Source: Magallana gigas (lineage: Eukaryota). From it: DNA of 64,000 nucleotides. The first letter of the stretch is position 1. Each line of letters opens with the position of its first letter. Below, piece by piece: positions 3,001-62,400 of the stretch. A program made the position numbers. The stretch lies in the NCBI RefSeq assembly GCF_963853765.1, contig NC_088861.1:13950001-14014000 (forward strand), written 5' to 3'.

Positions 3001-6000
3001 ACTTGGCAACAACATACTTTTATCTAACGAAAATACGTAAAGTTGCAGTTTAGATGTTGACCATTTCTGCAATTGTAAGAAAAAAAAATATGTTAATAGT
3101 CTATTTTTTTTTTTTGAAATAGTGCATGTCCTTAAGTGCAGTCATCATTTGAAATATTTAGAATCAACACTGCAGTATAATATTCTAACCTCGTGTTACT
3201 TTTGCTTATCTCATTTGCAAGCATGTCCCTTCATTTAAATATAACCTGATAATTTTGTATTCAAAATTTTAATAGATTTTCTTTACCCTTAATCAGAACA
3301 AATGAAACCAAATTAAAACATATTGAAAATTTGCCGTAAAAAGATCTTTACAATTACTTGGTAGGCAAGGAAAACCAAAGGCACACTACAACCTGTAAAT
3401 ACATGTACATGCTTTGTAACGAACATCAAAATCAATCATTCTCTGGTAAACCACTCTATATTGAGTGCAAAAGCGCTCGTAAATGAACTTTATTTAACAA
3501 GTCTCTGAGTAAATGAAATTAACTATCAGAAACTAACAAAGTTAAATACGCAAGGATAAAAAACTGTGAAAATACATACAAAATTATTTTTTCGACTGTC
3601 GCAGTTTACCTCCCTTTATTTTTTTCATAATGTCACATGGAGCTATCTATTCAAAAATAAGGTTAAAGATAGTAGGGGTTATATCAAAAATAAGTAATTA
3701 AAATGTTTATCACCCCAGTGATATAGAAGTTATACCATAAACATCTTTTTTTGATAATTTGATGTTTGGAGGCAAAATTTTCGGAATTTTTTCGACGGTT
3801 TCTTGACTGGAAAACATAGAGCGCATGTCTGCGCAAGTACTATTTTAAACTATGATGTATATTATCACGTTGCAGGAAGTAGCCATTTGATGTAAACAGC
3901 TACTGGACATTGATGACGTATCAAGACTTATGTGATATATATCCTCTGTGTACTGTTTTAAAAAGATTTGATTGTTTTTTTATCAATAACGCAAATGACT
4001 TACTGATGCAGCGCAAGCGCAGTATTTATACGAAATACAGATAACATGAAAAATAAAATGTCATTTATTTAATATTTAGTAGTATGGAAATTCTTTGAAT
4101 ACTATGCGGTCATAATTATGATCGGGGCGAAATCAAATCTATTGACAAAAATTGATATTCAAAGAATTATTCCCTTTCCCTTAAATCATTTGCAACAATT
4201 TGATTTAATATATTTCCTCACTTTGATTACAGTGTTTTCTTTATTATATGTTTGTGTATATATTAATTAAAAAATTAAGAAATTAAGAGTTTCGTGAATG
4301 TTGCCGAATAAACTCCGAGAGGAAATACTCAGCGTTATGACCAAAACTAGGATGTGAATTCAACGTCGTTTTCAAAAATACGTTTTGAAGCTATTTTCTT
4401 AAGTTACATCCCTATAGAAGAAATAGAATGCTTTTTTTTTTGGTGATCCATGCAAGTTATGGTAGCAATCAATGCCATAGAAAAAAAGTAGATTATATAA
4501 CCAGCTAAAGCAGTTATGTATTTTTACTGCAATTTCGCTACCTTTATATTCCGAATGAATCACCTAAAAGCATTTGGTCATTTTAATAGTGTTTTTGATT
4601 TGAATAAATTTCACAGGAAACACTTAAAATTTCCGAGAGTGATTCATTGACTTCTGTACCTTAGTATACTAGAGGAATTGGGGTAAAATTGACTAATTTA
4701 CTTTTTCAACTTTGGACCTAATAATGATCAATTAAAACCTTTATACTGTACAAAGTTAAAGCAGTGAGTGTTACAAACTGTTAGTTTCAAAATAGTTCAA
4801 ATTATATTTCAATTGTATATATTATGCCTATAAGGAAATTAATATGCTTTTGCTTTTTATTTTAAGCGTTGCATGAAGTTTTGTTGTTAATATCTCTTTG
4901 TATTATTTCATCATATTTTAAGCGATGATTTATATCTTTTAACAGATGTATCAAAGCAAACTGTTCTTGTAAAACATCAATGTAATGTATATGTAATGCA
5001 AATTCGTAGTGGAAACGCGAAAATATATACTGTACAAATGTATTTTCATCAAAATTGATTTTTAATTTAAGTATCATATACTTTCTATGATTTTTTCTAG
5101 GAATATAAATATTTGTTGTTTTGGATTTAACTGGAATGACATTATTGTAAATTGAACAGGCATTAATATGATATCATGTTTTAAAAACATATGTTTGCTA
5201 TTTATATGAAAGCTTATCATACCTTATATGATATTTTCTTAGTGGATCAATGTGTTGTACTGGATCTATCTGGAATGATACCATAGGAGACTGTACAGAT
5301 ACATGTTCTACATGAAATGTTTTCTGGAAACAATGGACGTTATGAGATTTAACAATTGTGCTACATCATAATCGTAATTTGTTTTCATGTTACATGTGCA
5401 AAATTTTCAAAAATAGATTCTTTGGAGATAACTGCTCTACAAAGTATCCTGCAATGTATTTTGGTCCAGGCTGTTTATTACAGTGTAATTGTATCACAGA
5501 ACAATGTCACCACGTTATCGGATGTTTGCAATCTTCTTCTAAAGGTGCATGGTGAACTCTCTTAACTGTTCCACTTGCTATATACGAATACATTTTAAGA
5601 ATGTTTATGTCATGCATGAAATTTTACACAACCTATCATAAAAACATAATGAATACAAATGAAAACAATATTGACAAAACGATGCATGTCCCCTGCAACA
5701 CCCTAAATTTTAAAACAATTCTTGTTGTTTAATGGGCTAAATATGTATGGAAAAAATCGGAGCTAGATTCTTAATGGACGAATCCGACTAGCTTAAAACA
5801 TTTTGCATTATTTTTGGGCTCATTCGGGTTCCTTTGGAAAGATCAACGCATCGCCGTAGCACATTTCCGATCATGTTTGTATATACGTAAATACCTGTAA
5901 ATTAAAAGTAAATGAATTTAAACTTTATATGCACACCATTATGAAGTTGCACAGGAAGTTTGAAATCAATTCGTTATAACATAACAAAACATGACTGACA

Positions 6001-59400: not shown

Positions 59401-62400
59401 GTCCAATATTTCAACATATAACGTGAAAAATAATTTCATTAAGATCCGGAGTTCTGGAATGCTGCCTTGGATATATTTTGAACAAGATAGAGAACAGATG
59501 TATTCGTAAGTTTTAACTCAGACTCTGGATATTCAATATGTATTTGCATGCATATTCACTGTCGCTCATATCTATTTGTTTTAATGTACAGCATGTGACA
59601 AAGGATATATTGGACACAACTGTAGTGACCCTTGTCCTCCTCCATATTATGGTCAGGAGTGTGCGTCAACGTGCAACTGTACTGATAACCAGTATTGTCA
59701 TCACGTACATGGATGTATACAACCACAAGGTAAATGTCACGGAATGATGATCCTTCCCCTTTTTCTACATACTGTTATGATTTCACTTATATTCGTGGGC
59801 ATTAATTTTTGTGGATAAATCGAAAATCACAGTTTTAAGGATACTCTGCCAATAATTCCAGCAATACATATTTTATTAGAAATTGCATCACAACGTTTAC
59901 TTACATTTAATTTCGTGAATAAACTCAACAACGAAATCCACGATTCTTTTTATTTTACAATTGTTGATAAAAACCACTATCAAAAGTAGCATATATTTTT
60001 ACTTCCAAGTATATTAGAAACTTCCGTATATCTCGCTCATAAAATTTTGTTTTTTATTTCATTATTGTTCTGAAAATTCAATATCCATATAGTTTTATAT
60101 TTAAGGTAATAAACAAAGTGTTTAAAAATATTTATCCTGCAGGTGATGCCTGTCAAAAAACAAAGCTAAAACCAGAGAAACACCCAAGTGTCACTTCTCT
60201 TATGTGTGCTGCAGTAGTTTGTCTGTTGATCATATCTGTAATCTGTTTCACTTCATATGTGTACATCAGATTCAGAATGAAACAATATGTAGATTTGCGA
60301 CAAGCTTTGTAAGAACTAATAAATTCGTTTCATATACAGCAATGTGTATGAGTGTAGTCTTCATTAATACATGTATCTTTTAATATACCGGTACCTGTAG
60401 GTGCACTTGTAAGCAATAAACGTGGCAACGTTAAAAAGACATCTCTAAGGTTTTAATTATCGTAAACAAGCGCTTTCCGCTAATGATACATCAGAACGAA
60501 CACTTACATTTTGTTCAAAATAAGATTAAGATGATGTTATAGAAACCGGAATTTTCTAATATATAATTTTAGATTCGTGTGTTAAATTTCACTTTAGATT
60601 ATTTGTAACTCAATGAGGGTACTATATGTAAAAGATATTAATATATAGGCAATTATACTAGTCAATTGTAAACAATGCACTTGAATGTCTACATAGCTGT
60701 TTAACCAAAACAACTGGACAGTTTGCATGTCATAGCAGATATTACAGCCCATTGCTAGAGCTGTTTATTACTTAAATAGTTTTGATTAGAAAAAAGAGAT
60801 GTGAATTATATTGATACATATTATGTTAAGTTATTTAATGTTTGATCAATTCATAAAGTAAATATACGGACCAAATAATCTTATTTTGACCAAATTGGGA
60901 TGCATATGATGTCATAAATAACCTACGTCATACATGTATATACCATGTATAAACCTCTCATTTCAGAAATACTAAACACTATAAAGTCACAAACAACTTA
61001 TAACATCATAATTTGTGTTGTTAAATTGTTTCTATGAAAAACATTTTTTTAATGGCACCAAATTGTAATAAATATCCAAACAAGGTATGTAACAATACGA
61101 CATCATTATGTAAACTAAGAACAAAATTCTGTTACATTTAATATCAACAACATTTCCATGATATAGGATAAACAAAACAGAAGTGACAAAACACGTATTC
61201 AGAATGCTAGAATTTTCAAGTAAGGAAAGGTAAAAAGAGTTTATTTGCCATAAATTAGTCTTCATTTATTAAGGTATCCCACTCCTCAATGTTCGTGTAT
61301 CAAGAATTTCTTGAGAAGTATATCATTGAAATCTGACGACAAAACATACTTAAAAAATACAAAGATAAAGAGATGTCAGTTTTCAGCCCTCTGATTTATG
61401 GCCAATTTAATTTTACCTCTTTGAACCCAAAATGCTATTTCAGCCTGATTGTGATTTCTTGTCAGTATTTTTGATTAAGCAAACTTTTTTCTTGAGGTAT
61501 TGTTTTTAATAATGCACAATGGTCACATTGAATAGAAGATTACGACAAGAATTTTCACGAATCTGCATAAATTTTTGTGTGACCTTTTTGCACTTAAAAT
61601 AGACACTTTCTATATTATTTACAATTTAACTTGAATAAAATCATTTTGAATATCAAGAACTTTATAAGATTAATCAGGTTTGCCTAGATAAGTATTCAGC
61701 ATCATTTTGACATAATAAAACATGGAGGTCAGTGATGTCAAATTTTAGATATATTGCTTCAAAGGTAGAATTTTTGCAAAATTTCGCTAAAAAAATTCAG
61801 ACAATACTTATATATATATGCATGATTTTATGATACACATCTATCATTCTCTCAAAATTTAGTTTTGTACAAGTCACATAGGACCTAAAAAACATGTCAC
61901 AAACCTATCAGATGTTAAAAATGTTAATATTGAATAAAGTATAATAAAAGAAAAGTATATTGAAAATTCATAAAATTGCTTGTATCCAACATCTTAGACT
62001 ACCTTCCGCACACAAAAATAGTTCCCCCAAAACTTGATTGTTGATTGAAATCAAATATATTTTCTTTATGAATAATGTTAAATTATGAAATGATGATCTT
62101 TATGTGAGGTTTAAATTAATAAAATCATATTCCATTAAAATATTATGGACATTTGCGCTATGAAATAAATATGTGAGCAGTGAGATACCTTAATAACAAA
62201 ATCTAGAACATTCATACAACATCCCATCTCTTTTTAAATGGTAAGAAACTATAATTATGTAGTACAATTATTCATTTAATTAACATCTACTGTATAAAAA
62301 ATTTCTAATCATTGTCCATGTTTTCCTGGTTTCAATACTATATGAAATCATGAAAATACAATATAATAATGTGTACAATATAACTATTTCAATCACTTTT

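What the first reader, a model, noticed from the sequence alone, without database searches (positions are those of the whole stretch)
4600..60900. Four-gene D-A-B-C cassette triplicated, each copy losing different members
Seen: order is D1psi/D2psi-A1-B1-C fragment | D remnant-A2psi-B2-C1 | D remnant-(A absent)-B3-C2. Intergenic flanks recur in the same order, for example the B upstream block (12590-13590, 22900-23860, 53670-54270), the post-B block (16070-16160, 58560-58650), the C upstream block (35080-35570, 58660-59150) and the pre-A block (9750-10080, 20790-21100). Only one intact A remains, while B has three open copies. Inference: birth-and-death evolution by unequal crossing-over, possibly with dosage constraint on the ITIM-bearing member.
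[Added by the scan's program, not by the reader: the finding's places include an assembly gap (unread letters, written N; its length is only estimated) at 33897 to 34024. Whether the letters on both sides are continuous or in frame is not known: test that first.]
Basis: partly seen in the sequence, partly recalled or inferred. Interest (0 to 1): 0.65.

Follow-up and report, generated by a model that had tools for sequence, protein, structure and literature searches.

The report
Decaying tandem array of oyster EGF-receptor genes
This stretch of an oyster-like genome holds a tandem cluster of twelve copies or fragments of one mollusc gene family for small EGF-type membrane proteins, only five of them still intact, an ordinary example of genes being duplicated and lost.

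Summary
The repeated D-A-B-C order is real. The reading needs three corrections.

1. A, B, C and D are four old sub-types of one family, not four unrelated genes. Each is a small type I membrane protein with a signal peptide, a CCxGY motif, one EGF-like repeat of the Tie2/SCARF1/MEGF kind, a stalk, a membrane helix and a short tail.

2. B does not have three open copies. B1 has a stop codon and a 1-bp deletion in its last exon. Five of twelve gene-derived segments are intact: A1, B2, B3, C1 and C2.

3. The array was not built by one triplication. Block divergences (K2P) range from 0.06 to 0.36.

A is missing from unit 3 through a clean 2.3-kb deletion that kept both flanks. Separately, a tyrosine-recombinase mobile element sits in the same spacer.

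The gap at 33897-34024 lies in repeat-filled spacer, 1.4 kb from the nearest family exon. The cassette order does not depend on it.

Birth-and-death evolution is supported. A dosage constraint on the ITIM-like member is not shown.

The parts
4630..6605 (+). D1 pseudogene. It has an extra CCFGF pseudo-exon near 5066-5152, a CCTGS exon near 5247-5300, an EGF exon near 5394-5543 and a membrane exon near 6324-6488.
   Evidence: Two cysteines are replaced in the EGF exon, and the exon-2 donor and exon-3 acceptor are lost. There is an in-frame stop and a deletion in the membrane exon, judged against P0082.
6607..8492 (+). D2, a partial tandem copy of the 5' part of D1. It is a pseudogene.
   Evidence: BLAST identity to D1 is 86-90%. 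There is a TAA inside the EGF exon at about 8311-8313, and the copy lacks the 3' part.
10079..11629 (+). A1, intact with 5 coding exons: 10079-10158, 10278-10342, 10465-10590, 10722-10793, 11379-11626, then the stop. It encodes 197 codons and ends in an ITIM-like IxYxxV.
   Evidence: All introns are GT-AG and the phases are consistent. The exons match database proteins P0004 and P0006 at 77-100% identity.
13523..15795 (+). B1, broken in its last exon. Exons: 13523-13590, 14824-14888, 14974-15117, 15561-15709. TAA lies at 15710-15712 and a 1-bp deletion lies in the membrane helix.
   Evidence: The M. gigas model P0001 reads Ser where B1 has the stop.
16939..18701 (+). C fragment: the second half of the C membrane exon plus the 3' flank. 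The 5' 1.6 kb of the gene is missing.
   Evidence: BLAST identity to C1 36660-38208 is 91-92% and K2P is 0.059. P0101 residues 121-149 match 16941-17027.
18700..20785 (+). D remnant of unit 2. Only the 3' part of D remains, and its membrane exon carries a stop.
   Evidence: BLAST identity to 38670-40775 is 87%, and K2P is 0.070-0.086. The stop lies in the 20092-20214 match to P0082.
21100..22400 (+). A2 pseudogene.
   Evidence: 7-bp deletion and TAG in exon 2, 1-bp deletion in exon 4, and 5-bp deletion in the membrane exon. K2P to A1 is 0.14.
23791..26169 (+). B2, intact with 4 exons: 23791-23858, 24889-24953, 25031-25171, 25994-26166, then the stop. It has a short stalk and a cytoplasmic tail of about 3 residues.
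   Evidence: Its architecture matches P0002 and P0003.
33897..34024 (.). Assembly gap of 128 N inside the 8.9-kb B2-C1 spacer.
   Evidence: No family exon was found in 26201-35080. The flanks are colinear with 1752-2233.
35490..36751 (+). C1, intact with 4 exons: 35490-35569, 35864-35925, 36016-36153, 36582-36748, then the stop. It encodes 149 codons.
   Evidence: It has the same length and exon joins as P0101 (149 aa), and exons 1 and 4 are 88-93% identical.
38670..40775 (+). D remnant of unit 3, with several stops in its membrane exon.
44649..52554 (+). About 7.9 kb of extra DNA in the unit 3 spacer. It holds a 168-bp satellite (46081-47208), a 27-bp repeat (47595-48001), a tyrosine-recombinase ORF (50118-51032) and a GDSL-like ORF (51191-51706). 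G+C is 38-43%, against about 31% around it.
   Evidence: The unit 1 spacer 9030-9625 (0.6 kb) corresponds to this interval. Composition is, repeats, Pfam and Atlas.
52695..52698 (.). Junction of the deletion that removed A from unit 3.
   Evidence: 9625-9770 matches 52554-52695, and 12068-12146 matches 52698-52782. About 2.3 kb, including all of A, is therefore missing. A profile of A1/A2 finds nothing in 40700-53700.
53073..53511 (-). Inverted segment upstream of B3, corresponding to about 12144-12859 of unit 1.
54198..57597 (+). B3, intact with 4 exons: 54198-54265, 56347-56411, 56496-56636, 57353-57594, then the stop. A 318-bp tandem duplication gives an upstream copy of exon 4 (57035-57155) that ends in a stop before the membrane helix.
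59068..60312 (+). C2, intact with 4 exons: 59068-59147, 59444-59505, 59592-59729, 60143-60309, then the stop. Leu replaces the usual Trp of the CCxGYxW motif, and the tail holds YVDL.

Best explanation
The region is a head-to-tail array of one gene family that, in what could be checked here, appears only in molluscs. The family encodes small (about 130-200 aa) type I membrane proteins. Each has a signal peptide, a CCxGYxW motif, one cysteine-rich EGF-like repeat of the Tie2/SCARF1/MEGF10-Draper kind, a Ser/Thr-rich stalk, one membrane helix and a short tail.

Four old sub-types (A, B, C, D) became arranged as D-A-B-C. Multi-gene pieces of that arrangement were then copied several times, at different dates, by DNA-level segmental duplication. 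This is inferred to be unequal recombination or gene conversion.

Copies were then lost by point nonsense mutations, small frameshifts, kilobase deletions and truncation. Mobile and satellite DNA inflated two spacers.

Shown: the colinear units, the family identity, the exon structures, the lesions, and the unequal ages.

Inferred: the recombination mechanism. Also inferred is that the intact genes act as cell-surface recognition or signalling receptors, with A carrying a tyrosine-based (ITIM-like or YxxPhi) tail motif.
For: Units and flanks.

One family: nine EGF exons, all on the + strand, share one Cys pattern. The EGF exons fall into four clades, with 83-95% nucleotide identity within a type and 44-64% between types.

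Exon models: all introns of A1, B1, B2, B3, C1 and C2 are GT-AG with consistent phases. Introns are retained in every copy, so the duplication was at DNA level.

Database support: proteins named 'MEGF10', 'draper-like' or 'uncharacterized' from Crassostrea/Magallana match the exons.

Family size: 954 representative clusters at E<=1e-3 and 143 at E<=1e-10. In a 58-member alignment, 14 Cys/Gly positions of the ectodomain are invariant (plus M1 and one Gly before it), and two more Cys are kept in at least 90%.

EGF kind: a profile of that alignment hits PDB 6u11_A 'EGF-like domain-containing protein' at E=1.3e-12, Tie2 at 1e-5 and SCARF1 at 0.06.

Fold: the AlphaFold model has blocks of ten residues covering 31-90 averaging 90 or more, and a helix at 149-182.

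Taxa: the three best Atlas clusters (scores 0.92-0.97) are Mollusca only, in 219 of 219, 130 of 132 and 62 of 62 members; for the second the phylum is known for only 130, with Mollusca given as the commonest.

Ages. Lesions. Clean A deletion.

Selection: the EGF exons are constrained. For C1/C2, 9 of 25.2 synonymous sites differ against 14 of 109.8 non-synonymous sites. The last exon is not constrained.

Tail motifs: ITIM-like motifs occur in 13 of 63 family tails, against 4.9 +/- 2.1 in shuffled tails (2 of 2000 shuffles reach 13).
Against: No Pfam family reaches its cut-off for any exon or any of 58 family members. The best EGF model is EGF_PEAR1L at E=0.0096 in 1 of 58.

The fold search has no match at E<=0.001. 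The best is the SCARF1 N-terminal fragment at E=0.038, probability 0.85, TM 0.18-0.31.

There is no expression evidence for any copy. 'Intact' means open and spliceable only.

Whole-gene dN/dS of 0.57-0.77 is high, so some 'intact' copies may be drifting.

The order of duplication events could not be resolved. B1/B2 are closer in the EGF exon (91%) than in the flanks (71%), which points to conversion or constraint confusing the ages.

Continuity across the gap, and tandem structure rather than an assembly artefact, cannot be proved from one window.
Confidence: 0.8

Rival explanations
1. One triplication of a four-gene cassette by unequal crossing-over, followed only by decay.
For: There are three colinear units in one orientation. 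The two C-to-D junction blocks are the most alike, as an unequal crossover between two units would give.
Against: K2P spans 0.059 to 0.366 among blocks of the same units. B2 is the most diverged B (0.36 to both others), whereas a crossover product should hold a near copy of B1 or B3. A1/A2 (0.14) fits neither the young layer (0.06-0.09) nor the old one (0.25).
Confidence: 0.12
2. Assembly artefact: uncollapsed haplotypes laid in tandem, or a false join at the gap, mimic extra units.
For: Bivalve assemblies are known for haplotig problems (search listing and abstract only of bioRxiv 10.1101/2022.08.29.505626). The window holds two gaps. The youngest block pair is 93-94% identical over shared columns.
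Against: Units differ by 6-36% and by kilobase indels. The C fragment is truncated inside an exon and lies in a different context from C1. D-to-A, A-to-B, B-to-C and C-to-D adjacency are each seen at least twice in gap-free sequence (D-to-A, A-to-B, C-to-D in units 1-2 and 2-3; B-to-C in units 1 and 3), so the order does not rest on the gap. Both gap flanks are colinear with 1752-2233.
Confidence: 0.06
3. Selection on dosage keeps exactly one ITIM-bearing A gene while B and C may multiply.
For: A was lost twice by independent routes: frameshifts in A2 and a clean deletion in unit 3. The IxYxxV end is kept in A1, in the dead A2 and in P0005.
Against: Survival is 1 of 3 for A, 2 of 3 for B, 2 of 3 for C and 0 of 4 for D. 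These are too few to tell from random loss. P0004 and P0005 are two A-type genes on one C. angulata contig, so more than one A per genome exists in a relative. P0004 has Met at position -2 of the motif.
Confidence: 0.08

Closest known systems
MEGF10 / MEGF11 / PEAR1 / Draper / CED-1 engulfment receptors
   Same: Database names given to relatives are 'MEGF10' and 'draper-like'. They are type I membrane proteins whose EGF-like repeat has the same Cys/Gly spacing. Atlas lists MEGF10, MEGF11 and Draper clusters as lower-scoring look-alikes (0.77-0.82, leads only). Tyrosine motifs in the tails are a family trait.
   Different: These proteins have one repeat and 130-200 aa, not many repeats and about 1000 aa (the size of MEGF10/Draper is recalled; Atlas rows give 736-985 aa). 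No Pfam EMI, EGF_PEAR1L or EGF_laminin match reaches its cut-off. Tails are 3-22 residues. No NPxY was seen in the window's genes (read).
SCARF1 (SREC-I) N-terminal fragment and Tie2 EGF repeats (solved structures)
   Same: The family profile aligns to Tie2 EGF repeats at E=1e-5 and to SCARF1 residues 20-101 at E=0.06. SCARF1 8hn0 is the best fold match.
   Different: The fold match is weak (E=0.038, TM 0.18-0.31). These receptors are large and have many domains.
PDB 6u11_A 'EGF-like domain-containing protein'
   Same: It is the best sequence match of the family profile, at E=1.3e-12, with two repeats aligned over the whole CxxGYxGxxC...CPxxxYGxxC...CxC...CxHxxG pattern.
   Different: It is a 497-aa chain. 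Its organism and function were not looked up.
Tandem immune-type receptor clusters under birth-and-death evolution (vertebrate KIR/LILR-type clusters, recalled; bivalve presence/absence variation, PMC7653742, search listing and abstract only)
   Same: Head-to-tail paralogues with a mix of intact genes, pseudogenes and fragments. Members with an ITIM-like tail sit beside members that are almost tail-less.
   Different: The ectodomain is EGF-like, not Ig-like. A, B and C ectodomains are only 44-64% identical in DNA, so they are not 'paired' receptors with matched ectodomains. No charged residue is seen in the membrane helices of B2, B3, C1 or C2 (read).

Membership tests
EGF-like repeat of the Tie2 / SCARF1 / MEGF kind | Sequence profile match to solved EGF-like repeats, with conserved Cys/Gly spacing | tested here: met
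   6u11_A E=1.3e-12, Tie2 (2gy5_A) 9.7e-06, SCARF1 (8hn0_A) 0.06; 14 Cys/Gly positions of the ectodomain invariant in 58 sequences.
EGF-like repeat of the Tie2 / SCARF1 / MEGF kind | Pfam EGF-type model (EGF_PEAR1L, EGF_laminin, EGF_2) at its gathering score | tested here: not met
   no exon reaches a cut-off; 0 of 58 members reach one, and 1 of 58 has EGF_PEAR1L at E=0.0096.
EGF-like repeat of the Tie2 / SCARF1 / MEGF kind | Fold similarity to a solved EGF-type ectodomain | tested here: inconclusive
   Model pLDDT is 75 overall and 90 or more in the ten-residue blocks covering 31-90. The best Foldseek hit is SCARF1 8hn0_A at E=0.038, probability 0.85. Of 184 matches at E<=10, 0 are at E<=0.001.
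MEGF10 / Draper / CED-1 proper | N-terminal EMI domain, many EGF repeats, and a long tail with NPxY and YxxL (definition recalled) | tested here: not met
   There is a single repeat and 142-197 codons. No EMI hit. Only the CCxGY motif recalls the end of an EMI domain, and that likeness is recalled, not tested.
ITIM-bearing inhibitory receptor | [S/I/V/L]xYxx[I/V/L] in the cytoplasmic tail | tested here: met
   The A1 tail ends in IxYxxV. The consensus itself is recalled.
ITIM-bearing inhibitory receptor | Motif conserved in orthologues and paralogues | tested here: inconclusive
   It is kept in P0005 and in the dead A2. P0004 has Met at -2. Family-wide enrichment is 13 of 63 tails against 4.9 expected.
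ITIM-bearing inhibitory receptor | Tyrosine phosphorylation and recruitment of SH2 phosphatases | not testable with these tools
   Needs bench work. YxxV at the very C-terminus fits a YxxPhi sorting signal equally well (recalled).
Tandem multigene family under birth-and-death evolution | Paralogous units in tandem, with intact genes, pseudogenes and fragments side by side | tested here: met
   5 intact and 7 dead or truncated.
Tandem multigene family under birth-and-death evolution | Duplications of different ages | tested here: met
   K2P from 0.059 to 0.366.
Tandem multigene family under birth-and-death evolution | Copy number differs among individuals or related species | not testable with these tools
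   No eukaryotic genome collection was open.
Eukaryotic tyrosine-recombinase mobile element (Crypton-like; for the insert at 44.6-52.6 kb) | ORF with the integrase catalytic domain and the N-terminal SAM-like core-binding domain | tested here: inconclusive
   Phage_integrase scores 25.2 bits against a cut-off of 27.1. Phage_int_SAM_1 scores 22.3 bits, equal to its cut-off. Atlas look-alikes score 0.97-0.98; the two best carry no common Pfam family, and integrase is on 29-33% of members of ranks 3 and 6, in Mollusca, Cnidaria and Oomycota. No terminal repeats were found.

The most novel reading that the evidence does not exclude
The D-A-B-C cassette may be a co-duplicating functional module of a large receptor repertoire, so far seen only in molluscs, that Pfam does not cover. 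Members with different signalling ends would work together in haemocyte recognition and be turned over quickly under pathogen pressure. Those ends are A with an ITIM-like tail, B almost tail-less, and C2 with YxxL.
Probability: 0.12. Interest if true: 0.6.

Novelty: new member of a known kind. Interest (0 to 1): 0.3.

Why it matters
It gives a worked, exon-level map of one cluster of a large and barely described family: 954 representative clusters, and no Pfam model reaches its cut-off. Oyster transcriptome papers keep listing this kind of gene as 'MEGF10 family', differing between resistant and susceptible lines (PMC9892467, passages read).

It shows that names such as 'MEGF10' or 'draper-like' overstate what these 130-200 aa proteins are. 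It also shows that at least one public gene model (P0001) fuses A and B exons.

As evolution it is ordinary: a tandem array gaining and losing copies.

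Tried and rejected
- Pfam on all 233 stop-to-stop frames of 55 aa or more gave nothing for the cassette genes.
- Rfam at gathering scores found 0 matches in the window.
Names are therefore known for only five of the 155 proteins fetched (P0001, P0003-P0006; P0002 carries a source label only). 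The taxonomic range rests on Atlas clusters.
- Looking for terminal repeats of the mobile element found none.
- Searching for an A remnant in unit 3, by BLAST with 7-letter words and by an nhmmer profile, found none.
- Testing overlap of the two gap flanks found only chance-level matches.
- A single unequal-crossover model was considered and rejected on the B2 distances.
- A 'paired receptor' reading was considered and set aside because the A, B and C ectodomains are too different.
- Literature searches were: 'oyster / MEGF10 / tandem duplication'; 'Crassostrea / ITIM / EGF'; 'MEGF10 / bivalve / expansion'; and 'MEGF10 / presence-absence variation / copy number variation / oyster / mussel'. 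No listed title or abstract describes this small-protein family or this cluster. Only PMC9334734 and PMC9892467 were opened, for passages.
- No complex prediction was run, because no binding claim is made.
- Spliced models were never joined. Searches used single exons or full-length database proteins.

Full report
**The window and the gap**

The window is 64,000 bases with 31.6% G+C. It has two N runs, 33897-34024 (128 N) and 63132-63332 (201 N).

The first gap was tested before anything else.
- It lies in the 8.9-kb stretch between the end of B2 (26169) and the start of the C1 upstream block (35081).
- 155 family proteins searched by tblastn find no exon in 26201-35080.
- The nearest family exons are C1 exon 1 at 35490 and B2's last exon ending at 26166. 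No reading frame of interest can cross the gap, so 'in frame' does not arise.
- The 2 kb on each side do not overlap each other beyond chance matches.
- Both sides match one stretch near the left end of the window, in the same order and strand. 33217-33373 matches 1752-1914 (72%). 34942-34987 matches 2110-2155 (91%, E=1.5e-12). Under lax scoring 34677-35073 matches 1847-2233.

That is modest internal support that the two sides belong together. It is not proof. The gap was not filled.

The cassette order does not depend on this join. D-to-A, A-to-B, B-to-C and C-to-D adjacency are each seen at least twice in gap-free sequence.

**The observation**

A self-comparison shows three colinear, same-strand units.
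- Unit 1: D1 4630-6605, D2 6607-8492, A1 9728-11729, B1 12562-16075, C fragment 16939-18701.
- Unit 2: D remnant 18700-20785, A2 20751-22511, B2 22873-26176, about 8.9 kb of other DNA, C1 35081-38208.
- Unit 3: D remnant 38670-40775, about 12 kb of other DNA, B3 53073-57850, C2 58664-60368.

Scores reach 2691 bits. The observation of a repeated D-A-B-C order is confirmed.

**What the four genes are**

They are one family. A motif scan found nine EGF-type exons, all on the + strand. Each is preceded by an exon with a CCxG[YF] motif.

These proteins, and P0101 from the representative library, map back exon by exon. Together with canonical GT-AG introns and consistent phases they give the models checked.
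- A1 has 5 exons and 197 codons.
- B2 (149 codons) and B3 (172 codons) have 4 exons each.
- C1 and C2 have 4 exons and 149 codons each.

The architecture is a signal peptide, the CCxGYxW motif, one Cys-rich repeat, a Ser/Thr-rich stalk, a membrane helix and a short tail.

The spliced models were searched exon by exon. Full-length queries were database proteins.

The EGF exons form four clear clades. Nucleotide identity is 83-95% within a type and 44-64% between types. The four types therefore long predate the copying of the cassette.

**State of each copy**

Intact (open, spliceable):
- A1, B2, B3, C1 and C2.

Broken:
- A2: 7-bp deletion with TAG in exon 2, 1-bp deletion in exon 4, 5-bp deletion in the membrane exon.
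- B1: TAA at 15710-15712 just before the membrane helix, and a 1-bp deletion inside it. The M. gigas model P0001 reads Ser at that codon. B1 could at most give a secreted, helix-less product.
- D1: two cysteines lost, exon-2 donor and exon-3 acceptor lost, and a stop and deletion in the membrane exon.
- D2: TAA in the EGF exon, and no 3' part.
- Both D remnants: only the 3' part remains, with stops.
- C fragment: it starts in the middle of the membrane exon.

So 5 of 12 gene-derived segments are intact.

**Absence of A in unit 3**

The pre-A flank 9625-9770 matches 52554-52695. Three bases later, 52698-52782 matches the post-A flank 12068-12146 (69%, E=2e-4). About 2.3 kb holding the whole A gene was therefore cleanly deleted. 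A profile of A1/A2 finds nothing in 40700-53700.

The same spacer holds three other changes.
- A 440-bp inversion at 53073-53511.
- A 140-bp piece like the 3' flank of B, at 52958-53099.
- About 7.9 kb of extra DNA at 44649-52554, where unit 1 has 0.6 kb.

The extra DNA is G+C-rich (38-43%). It holds a 168-bp satellite and a 27-bp repeat. It also holds an ORF with integrase and SAM-like domains at or just under the Pfam cut-offs. That ORF's Atlas look-alikes are eukaryotic clusters, two of them with integrase on 29-33% of members, from Mollusca, Cnidaria and Oomycota.

The mobile element did not replace A. The two events are separate.

**Ages**

On columns shared by all copies, K2P distances are as follows.

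| Pair | K2P |
|---|---|
| C fragment / C1 | 0.059 |
| D remnant 2 / D remnant 3 | 0.070-0.086 |
| A1 / A2 | 0.14 |
| D1 / D2 | 0.19 (BLAST identity 86-90%) |
| D1 / either remnant | 0.245 |
| B1 / B3 | 0.249 |
| C1 / C2 | 0.27 |
| B2 / B1 or B3 | 0.36 |

A single triplication, or a single unequal crossover between two units, cannot give a six-fold spread. In particular it predicts that B2 is a near copy of a neighbour, and B2 is the most diverged B.

At least three or four duplication or conversion events are needed. The youngest covers a block of about 4 kb, from the 3' half of C through the D remnant (16939-20785 and 36660-40775).

B1 and B2 are 91% identical in the EGF exon but 71% in the flanks. 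This is a hint of conversion or of strong constraint on that exon.

**Selection**

dN/dS was summed exon by exon, leaving out split codons. It is 0.57-0.77 for whole genes.

The EGF exon is constrained. For C1/C2, 9 of 25.2 synonymous sites differ, against 14 of 109.8 non-synonymous sites. The stalk, helix and tail exon is not constrained: 8.2 of 35.5 against 35.8 of 129.5. The numbers are small.

**The family at large**

P0003 finds 954 representative clusters at E<=1e-3, 143 at E<=1e-10 and 4 at E<=1e-30. Of the 150 listed, most are 110-300 aa long.

An alignment of 58 full-length members has 14 invariant Cys/Gly positions in the ectodomain.

Pfam does not cover the family. 0 of 58 members reach any cut-off, and 1 of 58 has EGF_PEAR1L at E=0.0096.

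A profile of the alignment does hit solved EGF-like repeats: 6u11_A at E=1.3e-12, Tie2 at about 1e-5 and SCARF1 at 0.06.

The AlphaFold model of P0004 has mean pLDDT 75. Its ten-residue blocks covering 31-90 average 90 or more, and it has a helix at 149-182. Its best fold match is the SCARF1 N-terminal fragment, but weakly (E=0.038; 0 of 184 matches at E<=0.001).

The three best Atlas clusters are Mollusca only. MEGF10, MEGF11 and Draper appear as lower-scoring leads.

The genes are therefore best called small MEGF/SCARF-like EGF receptors. They are not members of MEGF10/Draper proper: they have one repeat, no EMI hit and very short tails.

The likeness of CCxGY to the end of an EMI domain is recalled, not tested.

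**The ITIM-like tail**

A1 ends in IxYxxV, and the valine is the last residue. The motif is kept in P0005 and in the dead A2. P0004 has Met at -2.

Across the family, 13 of 63 tails of 8 residues or more carry an ITIM-like motif. Shuffled tails give 4.9 +/- 2.1, and 2 of 2000 shuffles reach 13. YxxPhi occurs in 32 of 63 tails against 21.1 +/- 3.2.

Tyrosine motifs are thus a family trait. Relatedness among the sequences inflates this test somewhat. Whether A's motif inhibits, sorts or does nothing is untested.

B2 and B3 have tails of about 3 residues. C2 has YVDL. C1 has no tyrosine after the helix.

**Verdict**

- The repeated cassette is real.
- The birth-and-death reading is supported.
- A one-step triplication is not supported.
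- The 'three open B' claim is wrong.
- The dosage idea has no evidence. Survival of 1/3, 2/3, 2/3 and 0/4 is compatible with random loss, and a relative has at least two A-type genes on one contig.

This is a new, well-mapped example of a known kind of locus, in a family that is large but poorly described.

**Left unchecked**

- Copy number in other individuals or species.
- Expression of any copy.
- Supplements of the cited papers.
- The closed contig collections.

**Papers**

- PMC9892467 and PMC9334734: passages found by term only.
- PMC7653742 and bioRxiv 10.1101/2022.08.29.505626: search listing and abstract only.

Noticed in passing
window 1-1043: Satellite-like tandem array with units of about 154-166 bp (also scored as a 315-bp period) at the left edge of the window, 75-83% alike.
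   Followed up: no
window 45796-48001: A 168-bp satellite (6.7 copies, 46081-47208) is followed by a 27-bp repeat (15 copies, 47595-48001). The 27-bp repeat lies inside a 290-aa open frame (47549-48418), just upstream of the tyrosine-recombinase ORF. Pieces of the 168-bp unit recur inverted at 28648-28923, in the unit 2 spacer.
   Followed up: partly
window 50118-51706: A 305-aa ORF has SAM-like and integrase domains. The next ORF, of 172 aa, has a weak GDSL/SGNH lipase match (E=1.5e-5, below cut-off). The region has 38-43% G+C in a roughly 31% background, and looks like a Crypton-like or related mobile element.
   Followed up: partly
window 56846-57475: A 318-bp tandem duplication (91% identity) inside B3 doubles the stalk exon. 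The upstream copy (57035-57155) keeps its acceptor but ends in a stop before the membrane helix. Alternative use would give a secreted form.
   Followed up: partly
window 5066-5152 and 7901-7987: Both D1 and D2 carry a second, upstream CCFG[FY]NWN pseudo-exon besides the CCTGS exon. This is an exon duplication inside D that predates the D1/D2 copy.
   Followed up: no
window 52958-53099: A 140-bp piece, 75-79% like the 3' flank of B1 (15891-15990) and B3 (57661-57801), lies just upstream of B3. It may be the last trace of another B copy removed together with A.
   Followed up: no
window 14974-15117 and 25031-25171: The EGF exons of B1 and B2 are 91% identical while their flanks are 71% identical. 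This could be gene conversion or strong constraint.
   Followed up: partly
protein P0001 (UniRef A0A8W8JFV1, Magallana gigas): This public 290-aa model strings together A exons 1-4, a second copy of A exons 3-4, and B exons 3-4. It looks like a read-through gene model across an A-A-B stretch, not a real protein.
   Followed up: partly
proteins P0091 and P0143: These two library 'proteins' read straight through the D intron after the EGF exon. They are probably unspliced ORF calls. P0091 keeps the cysteines that D1 has lost (90% identity), so an intact D-type EGF exon exists elsewhere.
   Followed up: no
window 63132-63332: A second assembly gap of 201 N lies outside the finding. Several listed open frames across both gaps are artefacts of N read as X.
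   Followed up: no
window 38283-38627: A short tandem duplication of about 155 bp (85% identity) lies in a roughly 460-bp insert that the C1/D-remnant copy has and the unit 1/2 copy lacks.
   Followed up: no
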